Positions 11,533-63,794 of a DNA stretch of 64,000 nt are shown in pieces (positions within the stretch are counted from its first letter, which is position 1; each line of letters opens with the position of its first letter). Below the pieces are notes generated by a model. It made no database searches and had not been told where the DNA came from. It saw nothing but the letters and a program-made list of their open reading frames with translations. The position numbers were made by a program, and so were the translations under genes. Location of the stretch: contig CP065018.1 of NCBI GenBank assembly GCA_016700415.1, positions 3,765,284-3,829,283 on the forward strand. Reading direction: 5' to 3'. This DNA is from Flavobacteriales bacterium. Lineage in GTDB: Bacteria; Bacteroidota; Bacteroidia; Flavobacteriales_F; PHOS-HE28.

Positions 11533-12522
11533 TTGACAAACCTCGCCACTCGTGCAATCCCCTTGGCGCTTGTGGCTGCTCTCGCTGTGAAAGCGACGGC
11601 ACAAAACCTCGTTCCGAACCCGAGCTTCGAGGATACGGCCCGATGTAATGCGGAATACGACCCGGTGCTTTTATCTGCACCACCATGGTTCAAACCGACC
11701 ACCGCCTCTTCGGATATTTACGATAATGATCTTGAACAACTCTGCGGTATCGCATGGGATCCCGCGAATCCGGACGTTCAGGCCAGTGGTTTCCAATTTG
11801 CGCGAACAGGAACTCGCTTTGCAGGTGCCTTCCATTGGTTTGGTGCAAATAGTTCTGACTCGAAAGACTATTTTACCGTTAAGCTAACTGAGGCTCTGAT
11901 TGAGCAAACGGCCTACGACGTTTCGCTATACTACAGCCGAGCTGACGGATATGCCTTTGCCACAGACCGCATCAGTGTCTTTTTCGGGCCGGACAGTTTC
12001 TATGTGCATGATTACCGCACTTTGCATGTGCAGCCGCAAGTTGACTTGATGGACCCGAATAACGAGTACCTAACTAACGCAGAGGATTGGGTCCTGCTAA
12101 CGGGTTCATTTGTCGCAACGGGAGGCGAACGGTACATGACCATCGGTTCTTTCTTGGACAGTTCCCAAGTGAACGGCACGACCGCACCCACAGGAAATCT
12201 GCCATACGCCTATTACTACTATGATGACATTGCGGTGTCGCCAGTACATCAATCAGGTATCGATGAATTGGAATTTTCCGGAGCAGTAACGGGTGACGGC
12301 AACCTGCGGTTGATAGGATTGTCGGATGGCACCTATGTAGCGCGATTGATCGATCGAATTGGTCGGGTCATTCAAGAATTCAAACAAGTCCGCTCCATGG
12401 CAGGGCATGCGGACATCGCAATAGGGGACCAAGGCATGGCTCACGGGCTATACTTGGTATCGGTTGAGTCAAGCGAAGGGAGGGGGGCCACCCGGTTCGT
12501 TTATACCGGTAGGCGGCAATGA
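11533..12522 (+). pseudogene. T9SS-secreted protein gene (signal peptide, beta-rich body, C-terminal T9SS sorting domain) interrupted in codon 7 by the IS3 element
   Basis: Track ORF begins at TTG 11533 with partial signal peptide TNLATRAIPLALVAALAVKATAQ; C-terminus LRLIGLSDGTYVARLIDRIGRVIQEF...GLYLVSVESSEGRGATRFVYTG resembles T9SS type-A CTD; authentic start is upstream of the IS at 10240. Confidence 0.65.
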
Positions 12523-55851: not shown

Positions 55852-57267
<1,416 letters not shown>

Positions 57268-57336: not shown

Positions 57337-57370
57337 TTATCCGCGTCCATCCGTGTCCATCCGTGGTTCG
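57337..57370. repeat. partial copy of the inner arm of the 17392..17618 MITE-like element
   Basis: ATCCGCGTCCATCCGTGTCCATCCGTGGTTCG vs 17531..17563 CATCCGTGTACATCCGTGTCCATCCGTGGTTCC; no TIRs present here. Confidence 0.6.
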
Positions 57371-57386
57371 TTCTAAAATCGACAAC

Positions 57387-58763
57387 ATGCAACACAAGAC
57401 CATCATCGAGCCCTTCCGCATCAAGAGCGTGGAGCCCATCAGCGTGGGCACCGAAGCGGAGCGCACGCAATACCTGAAGGACGCCCACTACAATCCGTTC
57501 CTGCTGCGATCGGACAATGTGGTGATCGACTTCATGACCGATAGCGGCACCAGCGCCATGAGCGCCCGGCAATGGGCGGGCATGATGGAGGGCGATGAGG
57601 CCTATGCCGGTTCGCGGAGCTGGGAGCGCATGGAGCGGGAAGTGCGGGACCTCACCGGCATGGCGTACATCCTCCCCACGCACCAAGGCCGCGCCGCGGA
57701 ACGCATCATCTATGGCCACTTGGGCGGCCCGGGCAAGGTCTTCATCAGCAACACGCACTTCGATACCACACGCGCCAACATCGAGTTCAGCGGCGCCACC
57801 GCCATCGACATCCCCATCGCCGAAGGGAAGGACACGGCCTTGGAGCATCCGTTCAAGGGCAACATGGACGTGGGCGAGCTGGACCGCTTGCTGAAGGAGC
57901 ACAAGGGCCATGTGGGCGCGGTGATCCTCACGGTGACCAACAACAGCGGAGGCGGCCAGCCGGTGAGCATGGCCAATGCGGAGAGCATCGCCGCGATCTG
58001 CAAGCGGCACGGTGTGCTCTACTTGCTGGATTGCTGCCGCATCGCGGAGAACAGCTGGTTCATCAAGCACCGGGAGGAAGGCATGGAAGGCTTGACCTAT
58101 CGCCAGATCGCGCAACGCATGTTCGCCCTGACCGATGGCGCCGTGATGAGCGCCAAGAAGGACGCGCTGGTGAACATGGGCGGCTTTCTGGCCTTGAAGG
58201 ACGAGGTCTTGGCCGAGGCCTGCATCAACCTCTTGATCATCACGGAGGGCTTTGCGACCTATGGCGGATTGTCCGGCCGCGACATGGAGGCGATCGCGAT
58301 CGGCCTGCAGGAGATCTTCGATCCGCACTATCTGGACTACCGGATCAAGAGCACCCTTTTCCTCGGGAAGAAGATGCACGAGCTGGGCGTTCCGCTGATG
58401 ATGCCCATCGGTGGGCACGCGGTGTACGTGGACGCGAAGAAGCTGTATCCCCACATCCCGCCGCATGAATATCCCGGGCAGGCCCTGGTGGGCGAACTGT
58501 ACAAGCTGGGCGGCATCCGCACGGTGGAGATCGGCTCCGTGATGTTCGGCACCTACAACGCCGACGGCACGCTGAATCCCGCGCCCATGGAGCTGGTGCG
58601 CTTAGCCATTCCGCGCCGGGTGTACACGCAGAGCCACATCGAATACGTGGTGGAGACCTTCGAGGAGATCATGAAGCAGCGCGACCGGGTACGCGGGTTG
58701 AAGATCACCAAGGAGCCGCGTTTCCTGCGCCACTTCACCGCGCACTTCGAGCCATTGACATGA
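57387..58763 (+). CDS. tnaA: tryptophanase (beta-eliminating lyase, TnaA-like paralog)
   Basis: MQHKTIIEPFRIKSVEPI..., NTHFDTTRANIE (TnaA-type vs [11 protein letters not shown]), [13 protein letters not shown]-terminal PRFLRHFTAHFEPL like E. coli TnaA PKVLRHFTAKLKEV. Confidence 0.8.
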   Translation: MQHKTIIEPFRIKSVEPISVGTEAERTQYLKDAHYNPFLLRSDNVVIDFMTDSGTSAMSARQWAGMMEGDEAYAGSRSWERMEREVRDLTGMAYILPTHQGRAAERIIYGHLGGPGKVFISNTHFDTTRANIEFSGATAIDIPIAEGKDTALEHPFKGNMDVGELDRLLKEHKGHVGAVILTVTNNSGGGQPVSMANAESIAAICKRHGVLYLLDCCRIAENSWFIKHREEGMEGLTYRQIAQRMFALTDGAVMSAKKDALVNMGGFLALKDEVLAEACINLLIITEGFATYGGLSGRDMEAIAIGLQEIFDPHYLDYRIKSTLFLGKKMHELGVPLMMPIGGHAVYVDAKKLYPHIPPHEYPGQALVGELYKLGGIRTVEIGSVMFGTYNADGTLNPAPMELVRLAIPRRVYTQSHIEYVVETFEEIMKQRDRVRGLKITKEPRFLRHFTAHFEPLT

Positions 58764-59215
58764 GCAACGGACCGATGGACCGGCCGGTGCGTGTCACCAA
58801 GCGCTTCACCTTCGAGATGGCCCATGCGCTGCGGTGCCACGATGGCCTCTGCGCCCAGATCCATGGGCACTCGTACGTGTTGGACGTTACGTTGATCGGG
58901 AAGCCGCGCAATGAGCCGGAACACCCGAAGGACGGCATGGTGATCGACTTCGCCGAGCTGAAGAAGCTGGTGAATAAGGCCGTGGTGGAGCATTACGACC
59001 ATGCACTGGTGCTGCACGAGAAGGACCGCGACCAGGCCTCCTCCGGCCACGAACTCTTCGGCCGGACGCGCTTCACGCCATGGCAGCCCAGTTGCGAGAA
59101 TGTGCTGCTGGACATCGTGGAGCGCTTGCAGAAGGCACTGCCGGAGAAGGACGCGCTGTACGCCGTCCGCCTTCAGGAAACGGCCACGAGCTGGGCGGAG
59201 TGGGGGCGGGGTTGA
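58760..59215 (+). CDS. queD: 6-carboxy-5,6,7,8-tetrahydropterin synthase / 6-pyruvoyl-tetrahydropterin synthase family
   Basis: VTKRFTFEMAHALRCHDGLCAQIHGHSYVLDVTLIG...GMVIDFAELKKLV...HYDHALVL (Zn-binding CxxxHGH motif). Confidence 0.75.
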   Translation: MSNGPMDRPVRVTKRFTFEMAHALRCHDGLCAQIHGHSYVLDVTLIGKPRNEPEHPKDGMVIDFAELKKLVNKAVVEHYDHALVLHEKDRDQASSGHELFGRTRFTPWQPSCENVLLDIVERLQKALPEKDALYAVRLQETATSWAEWGRG

Positions 59216-59220
59216 TCAGA

Positions 59221-59607
59221 TCAAGCCTTCACGAGCGGCACATCGTATTGCGCGAAGTGCGGGTCGGCCGTGAGCAGTTGCATGCCTTCGGCCTTGGCTT
59301 GGGCGATCAACATTCGGTCGAACGGGTCGCGGTGGTGTAAGGGAAGCTTGGATAGTTCGAGTATATGTGGCATTGTAACGGGCCGGGGAACGAACCCTCC
59401 GTTGGTGAATGACTTGAAGAAATCCTCGATCGGGCTATGGAGTTCCAGCTTCCCGAGCGCATGCTTGATCCCGATCTCCCACAATGATGCAATGCTCACG
59501 AGACATTCATGCTTTGGGTTCTCGATGATCGCTCTAGTGGCAGGGGTGCATTCCCGTTGACCCAGAACGAACCAGAGGAAGACATGGGTGTCCAGCAACA
59601 CCTTCAT
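59221..59607 (-). CDS. vapC: PIN-domain toxin VapC
   Basis: MKVLLDTHVFLWFVLGQREC...IASLWEIGIKHALGKL...DPFDRMLIAQAKAEGMQLLTADPHFAQYDVPLVKA. Confidence 0.8.
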   Translation of the reverse strand: MKVLLDTHVFLWFVLGQRECTPATRAIIENPKHECLVSIASLWEIGIKHALGKLELHSPIEDFFKSFTNGGFVPRPVTMPHILELSKLPLHHRDPFDRMLIAQAKAEGMQLLTADPHFAQYDVPLVKA

Positions 59608-59837
59608 TCCATGTATTCTTTGAAGTCATCAAGCGGGTCATCGAAGTCCTTGGAAATGGTGGCCATGCCTTTGGCGATGCCGAATACACGCGGCTTCTTT
59701 GCGTCGTTATCCTGTGGAACCCCTGCCTGCTTCTTTTGCTCCCATTGTTCCATGAGTGAAGCAATGAAGTCAAGCACCTTCTTCCTCACCTCCTCCGGAA
59801 GTGAGTCGAGCTGGATGTATGGGTCGTGCGTGGCCAT
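59604..59837 (-). CDS. type II antitoxin partnered with VapC (VapB-like)
   Basis: 77 aa, ATGA overlap with vapC; 70% identical to second copy at 62013..62237. Confidence 0.65.
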   Translation of the reverse strand: MATHDPYIQLDSLPEEVRKKVLDFIASLMEQWEQKKQAGVPQDNDAKKPRVFGIAKGMATISKDFDDPLDDFKEYME

Positions 59838-59854
59838 ATTTCAAAGATAGGCGA

Positions 59855-59905
59855 TCAGGACTTCACGAGCGGCACGTTGTAATGAGCGACATTTGGGTCG
59901 ACGGC
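59855..59905 (-). pseudogene. 3' remnant of a second vapC copy
   Basis: Minus-strand ...DPNVAHYNVPLVKS* matches C-terminus of intact VapC (DPHFAQYDVPLVKA*) and is spaced from the upstream antitoxin stop as in the intact pair; upstream sequence unrelated to VapC. Confidence 0.55.
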
Positions 59906-60149
59906 CTTACCGGCGCTCGGCGTAGTGCATGCCGCTCCGAAGTAACGCTGTGCTGCAGTCTGAAGACTGCCTATGGCTCCTGTGCATCTGTCCACTCCGG
60001 GGAGCAGGCCCACCAGTGACCCCTGCCGTTCATTCAGGAACCCATATTCCGGTTGGCAGGGAACACTGGCGGGAGCGGGGGGAAAATGATTGGTAAATGA
60101 TTTACCACTAAATGCCAATGTGCTCCGTTCATATTATTTTTTTAAAAAA

Positions 60150-60851
60150 TTAAACATTTACTCCAAAAAGGTAACCAACTAACGCAGAAAGTACCATTGC
60201 AATTGTTCCCCAAATTGTAATGCGTAAGATAGCTTTTTTTATACTTGACCCACCTGTTTTTGCAGCTGTTGTTCCAAGTATTATTAAGAATATAGTAGTA
60301 AAGCCATACAACCAATATTCCATTCCTTTTACTGGTGCAAATAGAATTACTAAAAGTGGTAAAACACCACCAACAGTAAATGCAGCACCTGATGCTATTG
60401 CAGCTTGAATTGGATTAGCTTGACTTATTTCATTGATGCCTAATTCATCTCTAATGTGAGTTCCTAATGCATCTTCTTCTGTCAATTCAATTGCTACTTG
60501 CATTGCGGTTACTTTTTTAAGTCCACGCTTCTCATAGATTTGAGCCAAAATATTTAGTTCTTCTTTTGGCATTTCTTTGAGTTCTTTTATTTCTCTTTCG
60601 ATGTCTGCTTTTTCTGTATCTGTTTGCGAACTTACAGAAACATACTCGCCTGCTGCCATTGATAAAGCACCTGCTACAAGTCCAGCGACTGTTGCTAACA
60701 ATATTGGTTCTCTTGTCGAACTTGCTGCTGCAACACCAATAGCAAGACTTGAAATAGAAATAATTCCGTCATTTGCCCCCAAAACGGCTGCTCTTAACCA
60801 GTTACTTCGGTGTATGTAATGATTGTCTAAATAGTTGTCGATTGTTATCAT
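60150..60851 (-). CDS. VIT1/CCC1-family (vacuolar iron transporter-like) membrane protein
   Basis: 233 aa; WLRAAVLGANDGIISISSLAIGVAAAS...ATVAGLVAGALSMAAGEYVSVSSQ...; AT-rich codon usage unlike host. Confidence 0.7.
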   Translation of the reverse strand: MITIDNYLDNHYIHRSNWLRAAVLGANDGIISISSLAIGVAAASSTREPILLATVAGLVAGALSMAAGEYVSVSSQTDTEKADIEREIKELKEMPKEELNILAQIYEKRGLKKVTAMQVAIELTEEDALGTHIRDELGINEISQANPIQAAIASGAAFTVGGVLPLLVILFAPVKGMEYWLYGFTTIFLIILGTTAAKTGGSSIKKAILRITIWGTIAMVLSALVGYLFGVNV

Positions 60852-60884
60852 TGTCTTGTTGTTGTCGGGTTGCTTTAAAATTAC

Positions 60885-61016
60885 GCCTAACGGTTTGCAG
60901 CTACCCGAAGGGCGGGATTTTTACCAATAAACCTCATTCGGAGCACTGAACTTTCGGCTACCACAAATGTGTCTGTGGAGCACGAAACCCCGCCTTTTGG
61001 GTAGGTGCTGTTAGCA
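60885..61016 (-). other. integron attC recombination site of the OXA cassette (R''-L''...L'-R')
   Basis: Minus strand: R'' TGCTAAC (61016-61010) - AGCAC - L'' CTACCCAAAAGGCGGGGT ... L' ATCCCGCCCTTCGGGTAG - 9 nt - R' GTTAGGC (60891-60885); R'' is exact complement of cassette-start core G|TTAGCA at 61857-61851. Confidence 0.75.
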
Positions 61017-61026
61017 GCAGCAATTC

Positions 61027-61842
61027 TCATTTGTCAGTCAGTTTAAGGTCGTCAAGTATTAAATAAACAATGTCAATTCGTGCATTTGCAAAGTCCTTGT
61101 TGTTTAAGTCAGCCGATTGAATGCAATTAGCAAAATAATAAACTTTGTTTTCAGTCTCCAAATAGCCAACATACCAACCAACATCTTTGTTGTCTTGTCC
61201 GCCCCAACCAGTTTTTGCTCTTACTACATAGTCCAACGTGTCCTTTGCAATCATTATGTTTTTTACAATGTCAACTGAACGCTGTGAAAAAGGAAGTTGG
61301 TTGTCGTGAAGTCGCTTTAAAAAGTCAATTTGTTGTTTGGGTGAAATACGAAGTCCGCCAGTCAGCCAAAACTTGTCAATGCCGCCTGATGTGTCTGCGT
61401 TGCCATAGTTTGCTTTGTCAAGCCAGTATTTCATTTGCTGTCCGCCTACTCGTCTGGCAAGTTCTTGATAATACCAAACAGTCGAATTTTTGAAAGCTGT
61501 TTTTAAGTCGTGGTCGGTGTTCCAGTTTGGATTTTGTCTGGTTACGCTGTCCCACGGAATTACAAAATTCTCGTCTTTAATTACTCCCGTCTCAAGTCCG
61601 ATAAGAGAGTTACAAATTTTAAAAGTCGAAGCAGGTGAAAAAGTTTGCTCGAACTGGTTTTGGTTGTAAAAAATATAATTGTCGGTTTGAGGGTCATAAA
61701 GCACGAAAGAACCGTTAACATTAAACTGGTCGTAATACTTTTTAAAATCGTTACGAATTTCAGTCGTCTGTTTTTGCTTACAGGCTGTCAGTCCAATAAC
61801 AGCTAAAGTCAATATTAATATGGTCTGTTTCATTGTCGTCAT
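61027..61842 (-). CDS. class D (OXA-type) beta-lactamase, lipoprotein signal
   Basis: 271 aa; signal LTLAVIGLTAC; class D motifs PASTFKI (S-T-F-K), ANYGNAD (Y-G-N), RAKTGWG (K-T-G); low-GC cassette-borne. Confidence 0.85.
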   Translation of the reverse strand: MTTMKQTILILTLAVIGLTACKQKQTTEIRNDFKKYYDQFNVNGSFVLYDPQTDNYIFYNQNQFEQTFSPASTFKICNSLIGLETGVIKDENFVIPWDSVTRQNPNWNTDHDLKTAFKNSTVWYYQELARRVGGQQMKYWLDKANYGNADTSGGIDKFWLTGGLRISPKQQIDFLKRLHDNQLPFSQRSVDIVKNIMIAKDTLDYVVRAKTGWGGQDNKDVGWYVGYLETENKVYYFANCIQSADLNNKDFANARIDIVYLILDDLKLTDK

Positions 61843-62012
61843 ATTGTTGCTGCTAACTAGTCGGTTGACGCTATATGTGGTTTATTTCCGGACTTGGTTT
61901 GTGCTTGGAGTTGGGTTTATCGCACTATTTGGGCATGTAAAGCCCAATAGGCTTTCGGTCTCCGAAGGTCGTCCAATGTAGCGCAGCTTTGCTGTTACCC
62001 GATGTGAGCGTT

Positions 62013-62237
62013 TCATTCCATGTACTCCTTGAAGTCATCCAGGGGCTCGTCGAAATCATCTGGAATAGTTGCCATTCCTTTGGCCAACCCGGCGATCAGC
62101 TTTTTCTTTGGCGACACTTCTTGTGCTGGGTTATTCCGCTCCCATTCCACCATCAGTTCCGTGATGAACGCAAGCACCTTCTTCCTCACCTCCTCCGGGA
62201 GTGAGTCGAGCTGGATGTATGGGTCGTGGGCGGCCAT
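62013..62237 (-). CDS. type II antitoxin (VapB-like), orphan second copy
   Basis: MAAHDPYIQLDSLPEEVRKKVLAFITELMVEWERNN...GMATIPDDFDEPLDDFKEYME; cognate vapC start replaced by unrelated sequence. Confidence 0.6.
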   Translation of the reverse strand: MAAHDPYIQLDSLPEEVRKKVLAFITELMVEWERNNPAQEVSPKKKLIAGLAKGMATIPDDFDEPLDDFKEYME

Positions 62238-62292
62238 ATTTCAAAGATAGGCCGATCAGCTCCAAGGCTGCTTGGAGCGTGGACTTACAACC

Positions 62293-62682
62293 TCACACCC
62301 TTTCCACCACGCGCTTCAAGGCATCGCGCACTTGTGTCGCGAGGGGCTCTATGGCCGGATTGTCCACGGCGCTCATGGCGGCCGCGGGGTCGATGGCCGC
62401 CACTTGATGCTTTCCGTCGGGCAGTTGCCGGAGGATGACATTGCACGGTAGCATGGTGCTGATGAGCGGCTCCAAGGTGACCACCTGGTCCGCGAACACC
62501 GGATTGCAGGCGCCCAGGATCAGGTGCGGCAAATGGTCCTTGTTCAGCTTTTTCTTCAATGTGGCCTGCAGGTCGATCTCCGTGAGCACACCGAAGCCTT
62601 CGGTCTTCAGCGCTTCCACGGTGCGTTCCTTCAAGGTGGCCATGTCGGTGTTGGCGATGGTACGGGTGATGGCGTAGTTCAT
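62293..62682 (-). CDS. DUF302 domain protein
   Basis: MNYAITRTIANTDMATLKERTVEALKTEGFGVLTEIDLQATLKKKLNKDHLPHLILGACNP. Confidence 0.65.
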   Translation of the reverse strand: MNYAITRTIANTDMATLKERTVEALKTEGFGVLTEIDLQATLKKKLNKDHLPHLILGACNPVFADQVVTLEPLISTMLPCNVILRQLPDGKHQVAAIDPAAAMSAVDNPAIEPLATQVRDALKRVVERV

Positions 62683-62786
62683 GGTGATGTGGGTTGATCC
62701 CATACGGGGATGTGCAGGTGGTACAAAGGTCCGCCGGATACAGCGGACGGTATGTGATGAAGGTCACGGTTGCGAGGGATCCCGCT

Positions 62787-63794
62787 TCAGCCGCCGATGG
62801 CCTGCATGGCCCGGTTCCCGGTATGGTTCCCCGGATCGCTGAACTCCTCCAAGGATTCCATACCGCCGCGTGCCTTCTTCTTATGAAGGACGTTGCTGCG
62901 GATCAGCTCGGTGATGTCCTCTCCCTTGCGGTAGGCGCTCAACAGGTCGCTTTCCGTGCCGGAGAAGAGGCAGTTTTTCATGCGGCCGTCGGCGGTAAGG
63001 CGCAGCCGGTTGCACGAATCGCAGAACGGGTTGGTCACCGTGCTGATGACCGCGAACGATCCCTGGTGCCCTTTGATCCGGTAGTGTTTGGCCGTGTCGT
63101 GGGGGCCGTCGATCATCCGTTCGATGTTGTCCGCTCCGAACCGGGTCCCCACCGTGTCAAGGACCTCCTGCAAGGAGACGCCCTTGCTCCAGTCCCACTT
63201 GTTCCCGTCAAAGGGCATGAACTCGATGAAACGGACCCGGACGCCCTCGTCGGCGGTCCATTGCACAAAGTCGCCGATCTCGTCGTCGTTCGTGCCGCGG
63301 ATCAATACCGTGTTCACCTTCACGTCGAAGCCCCTGTCCATCAGCAGGCGGATGTTGCCAATCACCTCCTTGTAATGGTCGCGCCGCGTGATCCGCTGCA
63401 TGCGTTCCGGCCTCAAGGTGTCCAAGCTCACGTTGACATTGCGGACCCCGTATCGTTCGAACACGTCGATGAAGCGGTCCACCAGTACGCCGTTGGTGGT
63501 GATGGCGAGCTCTATGGGCAGCTTGGACAGGCCCTCGATGATCTCCGCCGCATCGTTCCGCACCAGCGGCTCGCCACCGGTCAGGCGGATCTTGCGCACG
63601 CCCATGGAAACGAAGGTGCCTGCGATGGCAAGCAGTTCCTCCTGCCGCATGAACTCCTCCCGGGGCCGAAGTGCGATACCCTCCTCGGGCATGCAATAGA
63701 AGCACCGCATGTTGCAGCGCTCCGTAAGGGAGATGCGCAGGTAGTCGTGCCTTCTTCCGAAAGTATCTGTCAACAGGGTGCTGCGGTCGGTCAT
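62787..63794 (-). CDS. moaA: GTP 3',8-cyclase (molybdenum cofactor biosynthesis protein A)
   Basis: LRISLTERCNMRCFYCMP (radical SAM CxxxCxxC), ...IRLTGGEPL..., C-terminal FCDSCNRLRLTADG second cluster. Confidence 0.85.
   Translation of the reverse strand: MTDRSTLLTDTFGRRHDYLRISLTERCNMRCFYCMPEEGIALRPREEFMRQEELLAIAGTFVSMGVRKIRLTGGEPLVRNDAAEIIEGLSKLPIELAITTNGVLVDRFIDVFERYGVRNVNVSLDTLRPERMQRITRRDHYKEVIGNIRLLMDRGFDVKVNTVLIRGTNDDEIGDFVQWTADEGVRVRFIEFMPFDGNKWDWSKGVSLQEVLDTVGTRFGADNIERMIDGPHDTAKHYRIKGHQGSFAVISTVTNPFCDSCNRLRLTADGRMKNCLFSGTESDLLSAYRKGEDITELIRSNVLHKKKARGGMESLEEFSDPGNHTGNRAMQAIGG

What the first reader, a model, noticed from the sequence alone, without database searches (positions are those of the whole stretch)
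59221..62237. Tandem vapBC duplication in which the second toxin gene has been replaced by the foreign island
Two VapB-like antitoxin genes (59604..59837 and 62013..62237, about 70% identical, each ending ...DDFKEYME) are present. Only the first is followed by an intact PIN-domain vapC. The second vapC survives only as a C-terminal stub (…DPNVAHYNVPLVKS, 59855-59905) next to the first pair. Some 2.1 kb, including the low-GC cassette island, lies between the stub and its former antitoxin. TA loci are known stabilisers of integron cassette arrays. Here the array appears to have landed inside, or recombined with, a TA duplication, leaving an orphan antitoxin.
Basis: partly seen in the sequence, partly recalled or inferred. 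Interest (0 to 1): 0.55.

Follow-up and report, generated by a model that had tools for sequence, protein, structure and literature searches.

The report
Cassette array replacing a toxin gene
In an uncultured wastewater Flavobacteriales bacterium, one of two neighbouring toxin-antitoxin pairs lost its toxin long ago to a small integrase-less integron-type gene-cassette array, which here carries a class D beta-lactamase, and the leftover antitoxin has been kept by selection.

Summary
There are two DUF2281/VapB-family antitoxin genes: A1 at 59604-59837 and A2 at 62013-62237, 67.5% identical in protein. There is one intact PIN toxin, T1 (59221-59607). A genuine 46-50 nt PIN 3' remnant sits at 59855-59905. 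The same layout occurs in more than 20 independent assemblies, including megabase contigs.

A2 did lose its toxin to integron-type cassettes, but not recently and not in this genome. The break falls right after ATGGAATGAA, followed by a conserved ~156-nt attachment site (attC0) ending in G|TTAGCA. Two other species share this junction but carry different cassettes. A fourth relative still has A2 with a PIN toxin.

A1 and A2 are old paralogues with separate positional orthologues, made partly alike by gene conversion. They are not a fresh tandem duplication.

The 2.1 kb between A2 and the stub consists of:
- attC0;
- an OXA-type cassette;
- a VIT1 cassette truncated inside its second gene;
- 172 nt of resident GC-rich DNA.

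A near-conspecific genome lacking both antitoxins, T1 and the island keeps this resident DNA, followed by a 30-nt patch partly matching the stub. So assigning the stub to A2's toxin is plausible but unproven.

No integrase lies in the 64 kb. Orphan A2 (dN/dS 0.11-0.17) and attC0 both appear constrained.

The parts
59221..59607 (-). T1: intact PIN-domain (VapC-type) toxin, 128 aa. Acidic residues D6, E44, D94/D97 and D114 are present.
   Evidence: PF01850 at E 2.1e-14. ATGA overlap with A1. 83% aa identity to the positional orthologue in L022/L023.
59604..59837 (-). A1: DUF2281/VapB-family antitoxin, 77 aa, the partner of T1. It is a mosaic gene: the 5' third is A2-type and the 3' part is of the queD-side type.
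   Evidence: PF10047. NF050009 at 78.8 bits. First 87 nt are 95% identical to L108 A2 and 77% to the L022 antitoxin; last 60 nt are 88% identical to L022.
59842..59849 (-). TATCTTTG box 4 nt before the A1 ATG. It matches the Bacteroidetes-type -7 promoter motif TAnnTTTG, which implies a leaderless or near-leaderless transcript (inferred).
   Evidence: TAnnTTTG-N4-ATG occurs 3 times in 64 kb against 0.19 expected, and two of the three are the A1 and A2 starts. The motif lies just upstream of the start codon (4-5 nt) in all the antitoxin orthologues whose upstream sequence was read.
59855..59905 (-). Stub: 3' remnant of a PIN toxin gene (AVDPNVAHYNVPLVKS*) ending 17 nt upstream of A1.
   Evidence: 79% identity over 48 nt to the 3' end of T1 (family D3). 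Alignment score 52 against T1, whereas shuffled spacer controls scored 22 +/- 3.3. L021 has only a short, partly matching 30-nt patch at this position. No such stub lies upstream of A1-type genes in L165/L170.
59906..60077 (.). Resident GC-rich segment (62% GC) with a strong hairpin. It is neither island nor recognisable toxin, and its function is unknown.
   Evidence: 95.4% identical to L021:11587-11760, where it lies directly between the DUF302 gene and queD. Not found in any other locus. No significant similarity to six PIN genes (z between -1.6 and 0.7). Folding of the overlapping stretch 60000-60149 gives z -2.75.
60078..60132 (-). First ~55 nt of a foreign 164-aa membrane-protein gene, truncated. 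This is the right-hand end of the island.
   Evidence: Homology to Chitinophagaceae loci L157/L161/L162 (VIT1 followed by the 164-aa gene) runs from 60887 to 60081 and stops inside that gene. The junction shows CC microhomology.
60150..60851 (-). VIT1/CCC1-family Fe/Mn transporter gene (36.6% GC). It is the second cassette, which starts at TTAGGC (60890).
   Evidence: PF01988 at E 4.8e-66. Homologues 90-95% identical occur in Flavobacterium, Chitinophagaceae and Bacteroidia. GC content.
60885..61016 (-). attC of the OXA cassette: R'' TGCTAAC ... R' GTTAGGC, 132 nt, an imperfect hairpin.
   Evidence: The DNA fold pairs CTACCC/GGGTAG and GGCGGG/CCCGCC, z -2.75. The same attC architecture and inner motifs occur in the L014/L016/L020 arrays. 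Coordinates checked.
61027..61842 (-). Class D (OXA-type) beta-lactamase gene, 271 aa, 38% GC, with STFK, STV, YGN and KTG motifs. The cassette spans 61856..60891.
   Evidence: NF012161 bla_class_D_main at 278 bits against a cut-off of 250. 6,694 homologues, many at 85-93% identity. Homology to other arrays starts at TTAGC 14 nt before the ATG and fades within about 10-30 nt past the attC R' site.
61857..62012 (-). attC0: the proximal attachment site of the array. Its 3' 92 nt (61853-61944) are highly conserved, and it ends in G|TTAGCA. It has R''-like GGGTAAC and L''/L'-like GCGCTACAT / ATATAGCGT boxes, but folds poorly.
   Evidence: Aligned with L107 and L108; conservation ends at GTT. The 3' 92 nt are 91-92% identical in all pairs, compared with 56-76% at 4-fold sites of the adjacent DUF302 gene. 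Fold z is only -1.19. No conserved ORF.
62013..62237 (-). A2: orphan DUF2281/VapB-family antitoxin, 74 aa. Its stop overlaps the vestigial ATG of the lost toxin (ATGGAATGAA).
   Evidence: PF10047. NF050009 at 70.6 bits. Orthologues next to the DUF302 gene in L101 (72%), L107 (80%) and L108 (68%). dN/dS 0.11-0.17 among the orphan copies.
62242..62249 (-). TATCTTTG box 4 nt before the A2 ATG. It is the likely promoter that also reads into the cassettes (inferred).
   Evidence: No terminator-like site on the minus strand between A2 and VIT1. The OXA cassette has only 14 nt between its boundary and the ATG.
62259..62278 (-). Perfect hairpin GCTCCAAG-CAGC-CTTGGAGC after the stop of the DUF302 gene, followed by TGATC. 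It marks the left limit of the A1/A2 homogenised tract.
   Evidence: Sequence read. Alignment.

Best explanation
The interval between the DUF302 gene and queD in this uncultured Flavobacteriales lineage is a recombination hot spot. It held two paralogous DUF2281(VapB-family)-PIN(VapC) toxin-antitoxin operons: A2-T2 next to the DUF302 gene and A1-T1 next to queD.

Shown:
- In a common ancestor of this genome and at least two other species, T2 was removed from its 5th nucleotide onward.
- In its place sits an integron-type cassette array with no integrase in the 64 kb. The array begins with a conserved ~156-nt attachment site (attC0).
- Downstream of the G|TT of attC0 the cassettes differ between species. 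Here they are an OXA-type class D beta-lactamase cassette with a canonical attC, and a VIT1 cassette that a later deletion cut inside its second gene.
- A1-T1 is intact. A1 and A2 have exchanged their 5' ends by gene conversion.

Inferred:
- An integron integrase encoded elsewhere, or supplied in trans, makes the cassette turnover.
- The array originally entered T2 in the way cassettes enter genomic secondary (attG) sites, and imprecise excision or deletion then trimmed the toxin.
- The orphan antitoxin is retained because its TAnnTTTG promoter transcribes the essentially promoterless cassettes, and/or because it buffers the paralogous toxin T1.
- The 46-50 nt PIN stub upstream of A1 is kept because it carries A1-T1 upstream sequence.

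The stub is probably the 3' end of an old toxin at this locus, possibly T2. However, it is separated from the island by resident DNA. In a near-conspecific genome that has lost both antitoxins, T1 and the island, that resident DNA remains and is followed by a 30-nt patch that only partly matches the stub.
For: A2 is the resident gene:
- The DUF302 gene, A2 and attC0 are collinear in one 79-81% identity block with L107 and L108.
- L101 has the DUF302 gene, A2 and a PIN toxin with the same ATGA overlap.
- T2-type toxins are independently damaged elsewhere: a frameshift in L101 and an IS insertion in L115.

Shared junction: in the window, L107 and L108, identity runs through ATGGAATGA, drops, then resumes over about 95 nt and stops at GTT(A/G)GC.

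The cassettes are genuine:
- Homology of the OXA cassette to three unrelated arrays begins at TTAGC 14 nt before the ATG. It fades within about 10-30 nt past the attC R' site.
- The attC folds as an imperfect hairpin.
- L108 carries two other cassettes with CGCTAAC..GTTGGCG and GCCAACA..GTTGAAC sites. L107 carries another cassette.

Right end of the island: it is a truncated foreign gene.

Resident spacer: 95.4% identical to L021, which lacks A2, the island, A1 and T1.

Selection:
- dN/dS of the orphan A2 copies is 0.11-0.17, comparable to 0.09 for A1 against its L022 orthologue.
- The 3' 92 nt of attC0 are 91-92% identical, compared with 56-76% at neighbouring 4-fold sites.

Promoter and read-through.

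No integrase: tblastn with an IntI1 probe found nothing at E<1 in the window or its flanks. The probe was validated against VchIntIA and the Xer recombinases.

Known mechanisms: integrase-less attC clusters (PMC4889954), and genomic attG insertion with expression from host promoters and imprecise excision (bioRxiv 10.1101/2022.09.11.507474).
Against: - The A2|attC0 junction (ATGAA|ACGC) is not a canonical G|TT or G|WT crossover, so at least one non-integrase event must be assumed.
- attC0 folds poorly (z -1.19), and its 5' arm is degenerate in L107 and L108. It may therefore act like an attI or be a fossil site. No attC covariance model was run.
- No integrase has been located. Differences between the arrays could partly reflect differential loss from a larger ancestral array rather than new captures.
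- The left end of the resident spacer coincides to within about 2 nt in the window and in L021. This fits better with en-bloc insertion of A2 plus the array into an L021-like locus than with my preferred reading that L021 lost them.
- L021 and L108 share the 18-mer CTGCCGAAGATCTGATCA next to queD, which I cannot explain.
- Transcription from the A2 promoter, and neutralisation of T1 by A2, are untested.
Confidence: 0.65

Rival explanations
1. A vapBC operon duplicated in tandem in this genome, and the foreign island then replaced the body of the second vapC. On this view A2 and the stub are the two ends of one disrupted operon.
For: - The order and orientation fit: A2, then the island, then the stub, then A1-T1, all on one strand.
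- L101 shows traces of both modules at this locus: A2-T2 plus a ~50-nt T1 stub at queD.
- An intact tandem toxin-antitoxin pair exists in L116.
- The stub is not an intrinsic part of A1-T1 modules elsewhere.
Against: - A1 and A2 have separate positional orthologues, dS of about 1 and mosaic similarity.
- The toxin-side junction is shared by three species carrying different cassettes, so the event long predates this genome.
- 172 nt of resident DNA with no PIN similarity separate the island from the stub.
- The island ends inside a foreign gene, not inside the toxin.
- L021 keeps the spacer, followed by a patch partly matching the stub, without A2 or the island.
Confidence: 0.2
2. The stub is a by-product of how the A1-T1 module was installed or re-installed next to queD. 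A single-crossover (Campbell-type) recombination between the 3' end of an incoming toxin gene and an older toxin remnant duplicated that short segment. On this view the stub is independent of A2 and of the island.
For: - In L022 and L023 the same toxin-antitoxin module is flanked by ~110-nt direct repeats of the queD 3' end. This is the signature of such an insertion.
- In L109-L113 the module, together with a queD 3' fragment, sits at a different locus, so it moves as a block.
- TGATC occurs at every junction in the window.
- Short queD-side sequences, partly matching a toxin 3' end, occur in genomes without T1: L021 and L108.
Against: - The A1-T1-queD region is collinear with L022 in one block at 79.5% identity, like the flanking genes. 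This favours vertical inheritance.
- The stub is only 79% identical to the 3' end of T1, so any duplication would be old.
- No circular intermediate or recombinase is known for this module.
Confidence: 0.25
3. A2 plus the whole array was imported en bloc into an L021-like locus (DUF302 gene, spacer, stub, ...). The mechanism would be homology-facilitated illegitimate recombination, anchored in the DUF302 gene and joined by CC microhomology at the left end of the spacer. On this view the present A2 never had a toxin in this genome's own lineage.
For: - The right end of the island and the left end of the L021 spacer coincide to within about 2 nt, with CC microhomology.
- The 22 nt after the DUF302 gene stop differ completely between the window and L021, although the gene itself is 95-98% identical.
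Against: - No patch of elevated divergence lies next to the junction in the DUF302 gene or moaA.
- The DUF302 gene, A2 and attC0 diverge in step with L107 and L108, as expected for vertical descent.
- The arrangement is fixed in all contigs read that carry this toxin, A2 or the DUF302 protein (about 23 per look-up).
Confidence: 0.25
4. Assembly or binning artefact: the low-GC island, or the second antitoxin, does not really belong at this position.
For: The GC content drops sharply, to 35-42% against 60% for the rest of the window.
Against: - Identical gene order occurs on at least 23 independent contigs from NCBI, JGI and ENA, including contigs of 1.33 and 1.68 Mb.
- The junctions are cassette boundaries, also seen in L107 and L108.
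Confidence: 0.01

Closest known systems
CALIN/SALIN: clusters of attC sites, or single attC sites, lacking an integron integrase (Cury et al. 2016, PMC4889954; Neron et al. 2022, PMC9024848)
   Same: Unidirectional cassettes bounded by attC sites with RYYYAAC/GTTRRRY boxes, no intI within reach, a small array of 2-3 sites, and a resistance gene as cargo.
   Different: - The proximal site replaces the toxin ORF of a resident toxin-antitoxin operon.
- That site is conserved in sequence across at least three species.
- The host is a Flavobacteriales lineage. In RefSeq surveys Bacteroidetes had almost no complete integrons.
- One cassette is truncated by a non-integrase deletion.
Integrase-mediated cassette insertion at genomic attG sites (Loot et al., bioRxiv 10.1101/2022.09.11.507474)
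   Same: Cassettes sit inside a chromosomal gene, outside any integron. They can be expressed from a nearby host promoter, and imprecise excision can delete flanking DNA.
   Different: - The left junction here is not a G|WT crossover.
- The insertion has persisted through speciation and has become a reusable landing site.
- No integrase has been identified.
Toxin-antitoxin cassettes that stabilise sedentary chromosomal integrons (Vibrio-type super-integrons; my own knowledge plus reviews listed)
   Same: Physical association of type II toxin-antitoxin genes with cassette arrays.
   Different: The toxin-antitoxin genes here are resident chromosomal genes, not cassettes. A1-T1 has no attC and ends 5 nt from queD. 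The array-linked module has lost its toxin, so it cannot stabilise anything by post-segregational killing.
DUF2281/COG5559-PIN type II toxin-antitoxin pairs (VapBC-like), e.g. Synechocystis ssl0385/sll0205 and ssl2138/sll1092 (PMC4963859)
   Same: A small DUF2281 antitoxin lies upstream of, and overlaps, a PIN toxin gene. NCBIfam names this antitoxin family VapB.
   Different: None for A1-T1. A2 is an orphan.
Orphan antitoxins and anti-addiction modules (chromosomal antitoxins kept without a cognate toxin; my own knowledge)
   Same: The antitoxin is retained under purifying selection after toxin loss, with a paralogous toxin 2.4 kb away.
   Different: In addition, the antitoxin gene here sits immediately upstream of the cassettes and may act as their promoter and regulator. 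That role is not part of the anti-addiction concept.

Membership tests
Type II VapBC-like toxin-antitoxin (A1-T1) | PIN-domain toxin with the conserved acidic residues | tested here: met
   PF01850 at E 2.1e-14 over residues 3-122. D6, E44, D94/D97 and D114 can be read in the translation.
Type II VapBC-like toxin-antitoxin (A1-T1) | A small antitoxin gene immediately upstream, translationally coupled to the toxin gene | tested here: met
   4-nt ATGA overlap. PF10047 and NF050009 both score above their cut-offs.
Type II VapBC-like toxin-antitoxin (A1-T1) | Toxicity of the PIN protein and its neutralisation by the antitoxin | not testable with these tools
   This requires expression experiments.
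Type II VapBC-like toxin-antitoxin (A2 module) | A cognate toxin gene downstream of the antitoxin | tested here: not met
   Only the ATG of the toxin survives. The next 156 nt are attC0, with no PIN similarity in any frame. The orthologue in L101 still has the toxin.
Integron gene cassette | attC with inverse core (RYYYAAC) and core (GTTRRRY) sites flanking an imperfect palindrome | tested here: met
   The OXA attC has TGCTAAC...GTTAGGC, spans 132 nt and folds as a hairpin with z -2.75. The same architecture occurs in the L014, L020, L107 and L108 cassettes. No IntegronFinder covariance model was available.
Integron gene cassette | Cassette boundaries at G|TT, shown by the same cassette occurring in different arrays | tested here: met
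   Homology of the OXA cassette to L014/L017 and L020 begins at TTAGC 14 nt before the ATG and fades within about 10-30 nt past the attC R' site. The flanks are unrelated.
Integron gene cassette | The second cassette (VIT1) is complete with its own attC | tested here: not met
   Homology to VIT1-plus-164-aa-gene units stops about 55 nt into the second gene. No R''/R' pair lies downstream.
Complete integron | An intI integrase gene adjacent to the array | tested here: not met
   tblastn with a validated IntI1 probe found no hit at E<1 in the 64-kb window or in any fetched flank. The rest of the genome was not searched.
Complete integron | attI site and Pc promoter next to intI | tested here: inconclusive
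   attC0 occupies the proximal position and is conserved in sequence like an attI, but it has attC-like R''/L'' boxes in the window and has no intI beside it. The candidate promoter is the antitoxin's TAnnTTTG box.
CALIN | At least two attC sites clustered without an integrase | tested here: inconclusive
   One canonical attC plus attC0, judged by manual criteria. L108 has attC0 plus two canonical sites.
Recent tandem gene duplication | The two copies are each other's closest relatives, with roughly uniform divergence | tested here: not met
   A2 is closer to L107 A2 (80% aa) than to A1 (67.5%). Identity is 95.5% in the 5' tract and 68% in the rest of the gene. dS is about 1.
Cassette-borne toxin-antitoxin stabiliser of an array | The toxin-antitoxin operon is itself bounded by an attC inside the array | tested here: not met
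   A1-T1 ends 5 nt from the queD stop, with no attC. A2 has positional orthologues with a normal toxin partner outside any array.

The most novel reading that the evidence does not exclude
The orphan antitoxin gene plus attC0 form a domesticated, integrase-less cassette-capture platform that selection has maintained across several Flavobacteriales species. The auto-regulated, leaderless toxin-antitoxin promoter would serve as the cassette promoter. The 92-nt conserved part of attC0 would be the docking site for an integrase supplied in trans. On this reading a decayed toxin-antitoxin operon has been exapted into a minimal integron-like expression site, in a phylum where complete integrons are almost unknown. 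It currently displays a beta-lactamase.
Probability: 0.25. Interest if true: 0.7.

Novelty: new variant of a known kind. Interest (0 to 1): 0.5.

Why it matters
- It gives a dated, comparative example of integron cassettes living outside an integron. One ancient entry into a toxin gene was followed by cassette turnover at the same site in at least three species.
- It comes from Flavobacteriales of activated sludge. That phylum has been nearly blank in integron surveys.
- An orphan antitoxin and a non-coding attachment site both appear constrained. This makes two ideas testable: that a toxin-antitoxin promoter can stand in for the integron cassette promoter, and that toxin loss is a route to such platforms.
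- Practically, the cargo is a class D beta-lactamase cassette. Close relatives (85-93% identical) are widespread in metagenomes and sit in other Bacteroidota arrays. This bears on environmental reservoirs of OXA-type genes.
- For the scan itself, the finding shows that a layout looking like a duplication with an insertion can be an old two-paralogue locus reshaped by gene conversion.

Tried and rejected
- **Rfam search** (E-value mode) over 58500-63000 gave only a chance snoRNA hit. No RNA family explains attC0 or the spacer.
- **Plasmid database**, distant blastn with the island, gave only ~69% VIT1 gene matches and no known plasmid integron.
- **Spacer as decayed toxin:** local alignments to six PIN genes were no better than shuffles. 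Rejected.
- **Spacer as terminal attC:** it has a strong hairpin but no AAC/GTT boxes, and it shows no similarity to the distal end of the L108 array. Rejected.
- **attC0 as the same site as the one upstream of the OXA cassette in L014:** no significant similarity.
- **attC0 as a coding remnant:** the reading frames differ between species.
- **Integrase nearby:** none found.
- **Import signal:** the sliding identity profile between the window and L021 shows no divergent patch beside the insertion/deletion.
- **Stub as part of the A1-T1 module:** it is absent upstream of A1-type genes in L165 and L170.
- **Assigning the stub to T1-type or T2-type toxins:** impossible, because toxin 3' ends are homogenised between paralogues.
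- **Intact A2-T2-A1-T1 arrangement at this locus:** not found among the relatives reachable with the capped searches.
- **Misassembly:** rejected.

Full report
**1. What is in the sequence**

All relevant genes are on the minus strand. In the direction of transcription the order is as follows:
- moaA (63794..62787)
- a DUF302 gene (62703..62293)
- a perfect hairpin followed by TGATC
- antitoxin A2 (62237..62013)
- a 156-nt non-coding element, here called attC0 (62012..61857)
- a class D beta-lactamase gene (61842..61027)
- a 132-nt attC (61016..60885)
- a VIT1 transporter gene (60851..60150)
- 72 nt of low-GC tail (60149..60078)
- a 172-nt GC-rich segment (60077..59906)
- a 51-nt PIN 3' remnant, the stub (59905..59855)
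- antitoxin A1 (59837..59604)
- PIN toxin T1 (59607..59221)
- queD, which converges from the plus strand and ends 5 nt away

GC content is 36-38% in the two foreign genes and about 60% in the rest of the window.

**2. Check of the observation**

The two antitoxins. A1 and A2 both match Pfam DUF2281. Both also match NCBIfam NF050009 'VapB family antitoxin' above its cut-off, so the label 'VapB-like' is acceptable. They are 67.5% identical in protein.

The toxin. T1 is a complete PIN domain.

The stub.
- At nucleotide level it is 79% identical to the 3' end of T1 over 48 nt.
- Its alignment score against T1 is 52, whereas shuffled spacer controls against T1 scored 22 +/- 3.3.
- It is in frame with a stop codon.

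The assembly. The same arrangement occurs on at least 23 independently assembled contigs, including two of 1.3 and 1.7 Mb.

**3. The island is made of integron-type cassettes**

The OXA cassette:
- Its gene is flanked by the inverted sequences GTTAGCAGCAACAAT and ATTGCTGCTGCTAAC (repeat I11).
- Homologues 86-91% identical sit in unrelated unidirectional gene arrays (L014-L019, L020).
- Nucleotide homology to the window begins at TTAGC, 14 nt before the ATG. It fades within about 10-30 nt past the attC R' site, and the flanks are unrelated.
- The attC folds into the expected imperfect hairpin.
- It shares inner motifs with the other attCs of those arrays.
- NCBIfam places the enzyme in the main class D family but in no named OXA family.

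The VIT1 cassette:
- VIT1 proteins 90-95% identical occur across Flavobacterium, Chitinophagaceae and Bacteroidia.
- In Chitinophagaceae loci, VIT1 is followed 17 nt later by a 164-aa membrane-protein gene.
- The window keeps only the first ~55 nt of that second gene. Homology stops at about 60078-60081, in a CC microhomology.
- The island's right end is therefore a deletion scar inside foreign DNA. It is neither an attC nor a toxin gene.

The integrase. No IntI- or Xer-like recombinase is encoded in the window or in any flank fetched. The probe used was validated.

**4. Relatives show the history**

A scan with MoaA identified the organism as an uncultured Flavobacteriales lineage and returned syntenic loci. 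Further loci came from look-ups with antitoxin homologues and from a scan with a T2-type toxin.

| Locus | Layout between the DUF302 gene and queD |
|---|---|
| L101 | DUF302 gene, A2 (72%), PIN toxin T2 with ATGA overlap and one frameshift, Mla operon, ~50-nt T1 stub, queD |
| L107 | DUF302 gene, A2 (80%), attC0, a different low-GC cassette |
| L108 | DUF302 gene, A2 (68%), attC0, two other cassettes with canonical attCs, queD |
| L022/L023 | DUF302 gene, ~110-nt duplicate of the queD 3' end, A1-type antitoxin, T1 (83%), queD |
| L165-L170 | DUF302 gene, Mla operon, A1-type antitoxin, toxin, queD (queD is missing in L170); no stub upstream of the antitoxin |
| L021 (about 95.5% nucleotide identity to the window) | DUF302 gene, 22 nt, the 172-nt segment, a 30-nt patch partly matching the stub, queD; no antitoxin, toxin or island |
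| L116 | An intact tandem DUF2281-PIN/DUF2281-PIN at another locus; the last ~110 nt of the two toxin genes are nearly identical |
| L115 | A T2-type toxin interrupted by an insertion sequence |

**5. Inferences from the comparison**

(a) A2 is the resident antitoxin on the DUF302-gene side, and its toxin was lost once.
- The window, L107 and L108 share the same junction. Identity runs through ATGGAATGA, then comes a variable ~55 nt, then ~95 conserved nt ending at GTT(A/G)GC. Beyond that point the cassettes differ.
- The DUF302 gene, A2 and attC0 form a single 79-81% identity block with L107 and L108, as expected for vertical descent.

(b) A1-T1 is the resident module on the queD side. It forms one 79.5% identity block with queD and L022.

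(c) A1 and A2 are old paralogues, homogenised in part.
- An 89-nt tract from CTGATCG through codon 22 is 95.5% identical. The rest of the gene is 68% identical.
- The first 87 nt of A1 are 95% identical to the A2 of L108, but only 77% identical to A1's own positional orthologue in L022.
- The same kind of conversion is seen between the tandem toxin genes of L116.

(d) The orphan A2 is functional. dN/dS among the three orphan copies is 0.11-0.17, compared with 0.09 for A1 against its orthologue.

(e) attC0 is constrained. Its 3' 92 nt are 91-92% identical in all three pairs, whereas 4-fold degenerate sites of the adjacent DUF302 gene are 56-76% identical. No reading frame is conserved across it.
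- In the window attC0 has attC-like boxes: GGGTAAC, 5 nt, GCGCTACAT ... ATATAGCGT, 9 nt, GTTAGCA.
- Its 5' arm is degenerate in L107 and L108, and it folds poorly.
- I therefore leave open whether it acts as an attC, acts like an attI, or is a fossil site.

**6. Likely mechanism (inferred)**

Entry into the toxin gene. Cassettes can enter chromosomal genes at secondary (attG) sites. There they can be expressed from host promoters, and they can excise imprecisely, causing deletions (Loot et al.). Integrase-less attC clusters are common (Cury et al.). Entry into T2 followed by trimming would give the present junction, which is not itself a G|TT crossover.

Expression of the cassettes:
- All antitoxin genes of this family whose upstream sequence was read carry a TAnnTTTG box just upstream of the start codon (4-5 nt). 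From my own knowledge, this is the Bacteroidetes -7 promoter motif.
- In the window the motif TAnnTTTG-N4-ATG occurs three times against 0.19 expected, and two of the three are the A1 and A2 starts.
- The OXA cassette has only 14 nt between its boundary and its ATG.
- No terminator-like site lies on the minus strand between A2 and VIT1.
- The A2 promoter therefore plausibly drives the cassettes.

Two possible reasons to keep A2 are this promoter role and cross-neutralisation of T1. Neither has been tested.

**7. The stub**

It is real, but its origin is unresolved.

For the reading that it is the 3' end of T2:
- Both modules evidently coexisted at this locus (window; L101).
- The stub lies exactly where the end of T2 would lie in a tandem arrangement.
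- It is not part of A1-T1 modules elsewhere.

Against that reading, or complicating it:
- 172 nt with no PIN similarity lie between the island and the stub.
- That segment persists in L021 without A2 or the island, followed by a 30-nt patch that only partly matches the stub.
- The left end of the segment coincides within about 2 nt in the window and in L021.
- L022 shows that the A1-T1 module can be flanked by recombination-generated direct repeats.

I put roughly even odds on the stub being the end of T2. Whatever its origin, about 50 nt upstream of A1 may be preserved because they carry A1-T1 upstream sequence (inference).

**8. Comparison with what is known, and verdict**

- The A1-T1 pair is an ordinary DUF2281/COG5559-PIN toxin-antitoxin system (PMC4963859).
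- The array is of the integrase-less CALIN kind.
- What is unusual is the combination. The proximal attachment site occupies a toxin ORF. The site and the orphan antitoxin are conserved across species while the cassettes turn over. The host is a Flavobacteriales lineage, and in RefSeq surveys Bacteroidetes had almost no complete integrons.
- I rate it a new variant of a known kind, of moderate interest (0.5).

The recent tandem duplication, the insertion happening in this genome, and the direct link between the stub and A2 are not supported as stated.

Noticed in passing
window 55885-57267 and 57363-58763 (+): Two adjacent beta-eliminating lyase (tryptophanase/tyrosine phenol-lyase family) paralogues, about 45% identical to each other. 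The pair is conserved in all syntenic relatives examined.
   Followed up: partly
L022:11567-11690 vs 12366-12480 (also L023): In two sister species the A1-T1 module is flanked by direct repeats of about 110 nt of the queD 3' end. This looks like the product of a single-crossover insertion of a toxin-antitoxin-plus-queD' unit.
   Followed up: partly
L109-L113 (e.g. L109:6001-6700): The same toxin-antitoxin type sits at a different locus (esterase ... metallo-beta-lactamase-fold gene). It still carries a 50-90 nt fragment of the queD 3' end after the toxin stop, so the module and its neighbour's end have moved together.
   Followed up: partly
L021:11765-11800 and L108:7590-7610: Two genomes without T1 share the 18-mer CTGCCGAAGATCTGATCA next to queD, although their queD genes are only about 79% alike. 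Shared ancestry of a T1-less allele versus convergence was not resolved.
   Followed up: partly
window 59906-60077 (= L021:11587-11760): A GC-rich 172-nt segment containing a 10+7 bp hairpin. Folding of the overlapping stretch 60000-60149 gives z -2.75. It is conserved at 95% between two close relatives and found nowhere else among 170 loci. Its function is unknown.
   Followed up: partly
L115:356-1396: An IS-type transposase gene (346 aa) has replaced the first ~21 codons of a T2-type PIN toxin. This is a third independent way in which this toxin has been inactivated.
   Followed up: no
L116:2130-3407: An intact tandem DUF2281-PIN/DUF2281-PIN pair. The last ~110 nt of the two toxin genes are nearly identical while the rest is diverged, which indicates gene conversion between neighbouring toxin-antitoxin paralogues.
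   Followed up: partly
L014:5058-6000: In this array the OXA cassette is the first cassette. It follows a 940-nt AT-rich non-coding stretch, and the junction reads TTC|TTAGC rather than G|TTAGC. This may be another non-canonical entry site.
   Followed up: no
window 60150-60851; L157-L164: VIT1 proteins are 90-95% identical across several Bacteroidota families. In Chitinophagaceae the genes downstream of VIT1 vary between strains. This suggests that the VIT1-plus-164-aa unit is itself widely mobile.
   Followed up: partly
L101 vs L165-L170: In a neighbouring clade an MlaDEF operon lies between the two toxin-antitoxin positions. Strains from the same wastewater samples carry either A2-T2 (with A1-T1 reduced to a stub) or A1-T1 (with no A2-T2), as if the two modules were alternative.
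   Followed up: no
window 62704-62800 vs L021: A 54-nt insertion/deletion in the moaA-DUF302 intergenic region is the only other structural difference between the window and L021 within several kb.
   Followed up: no
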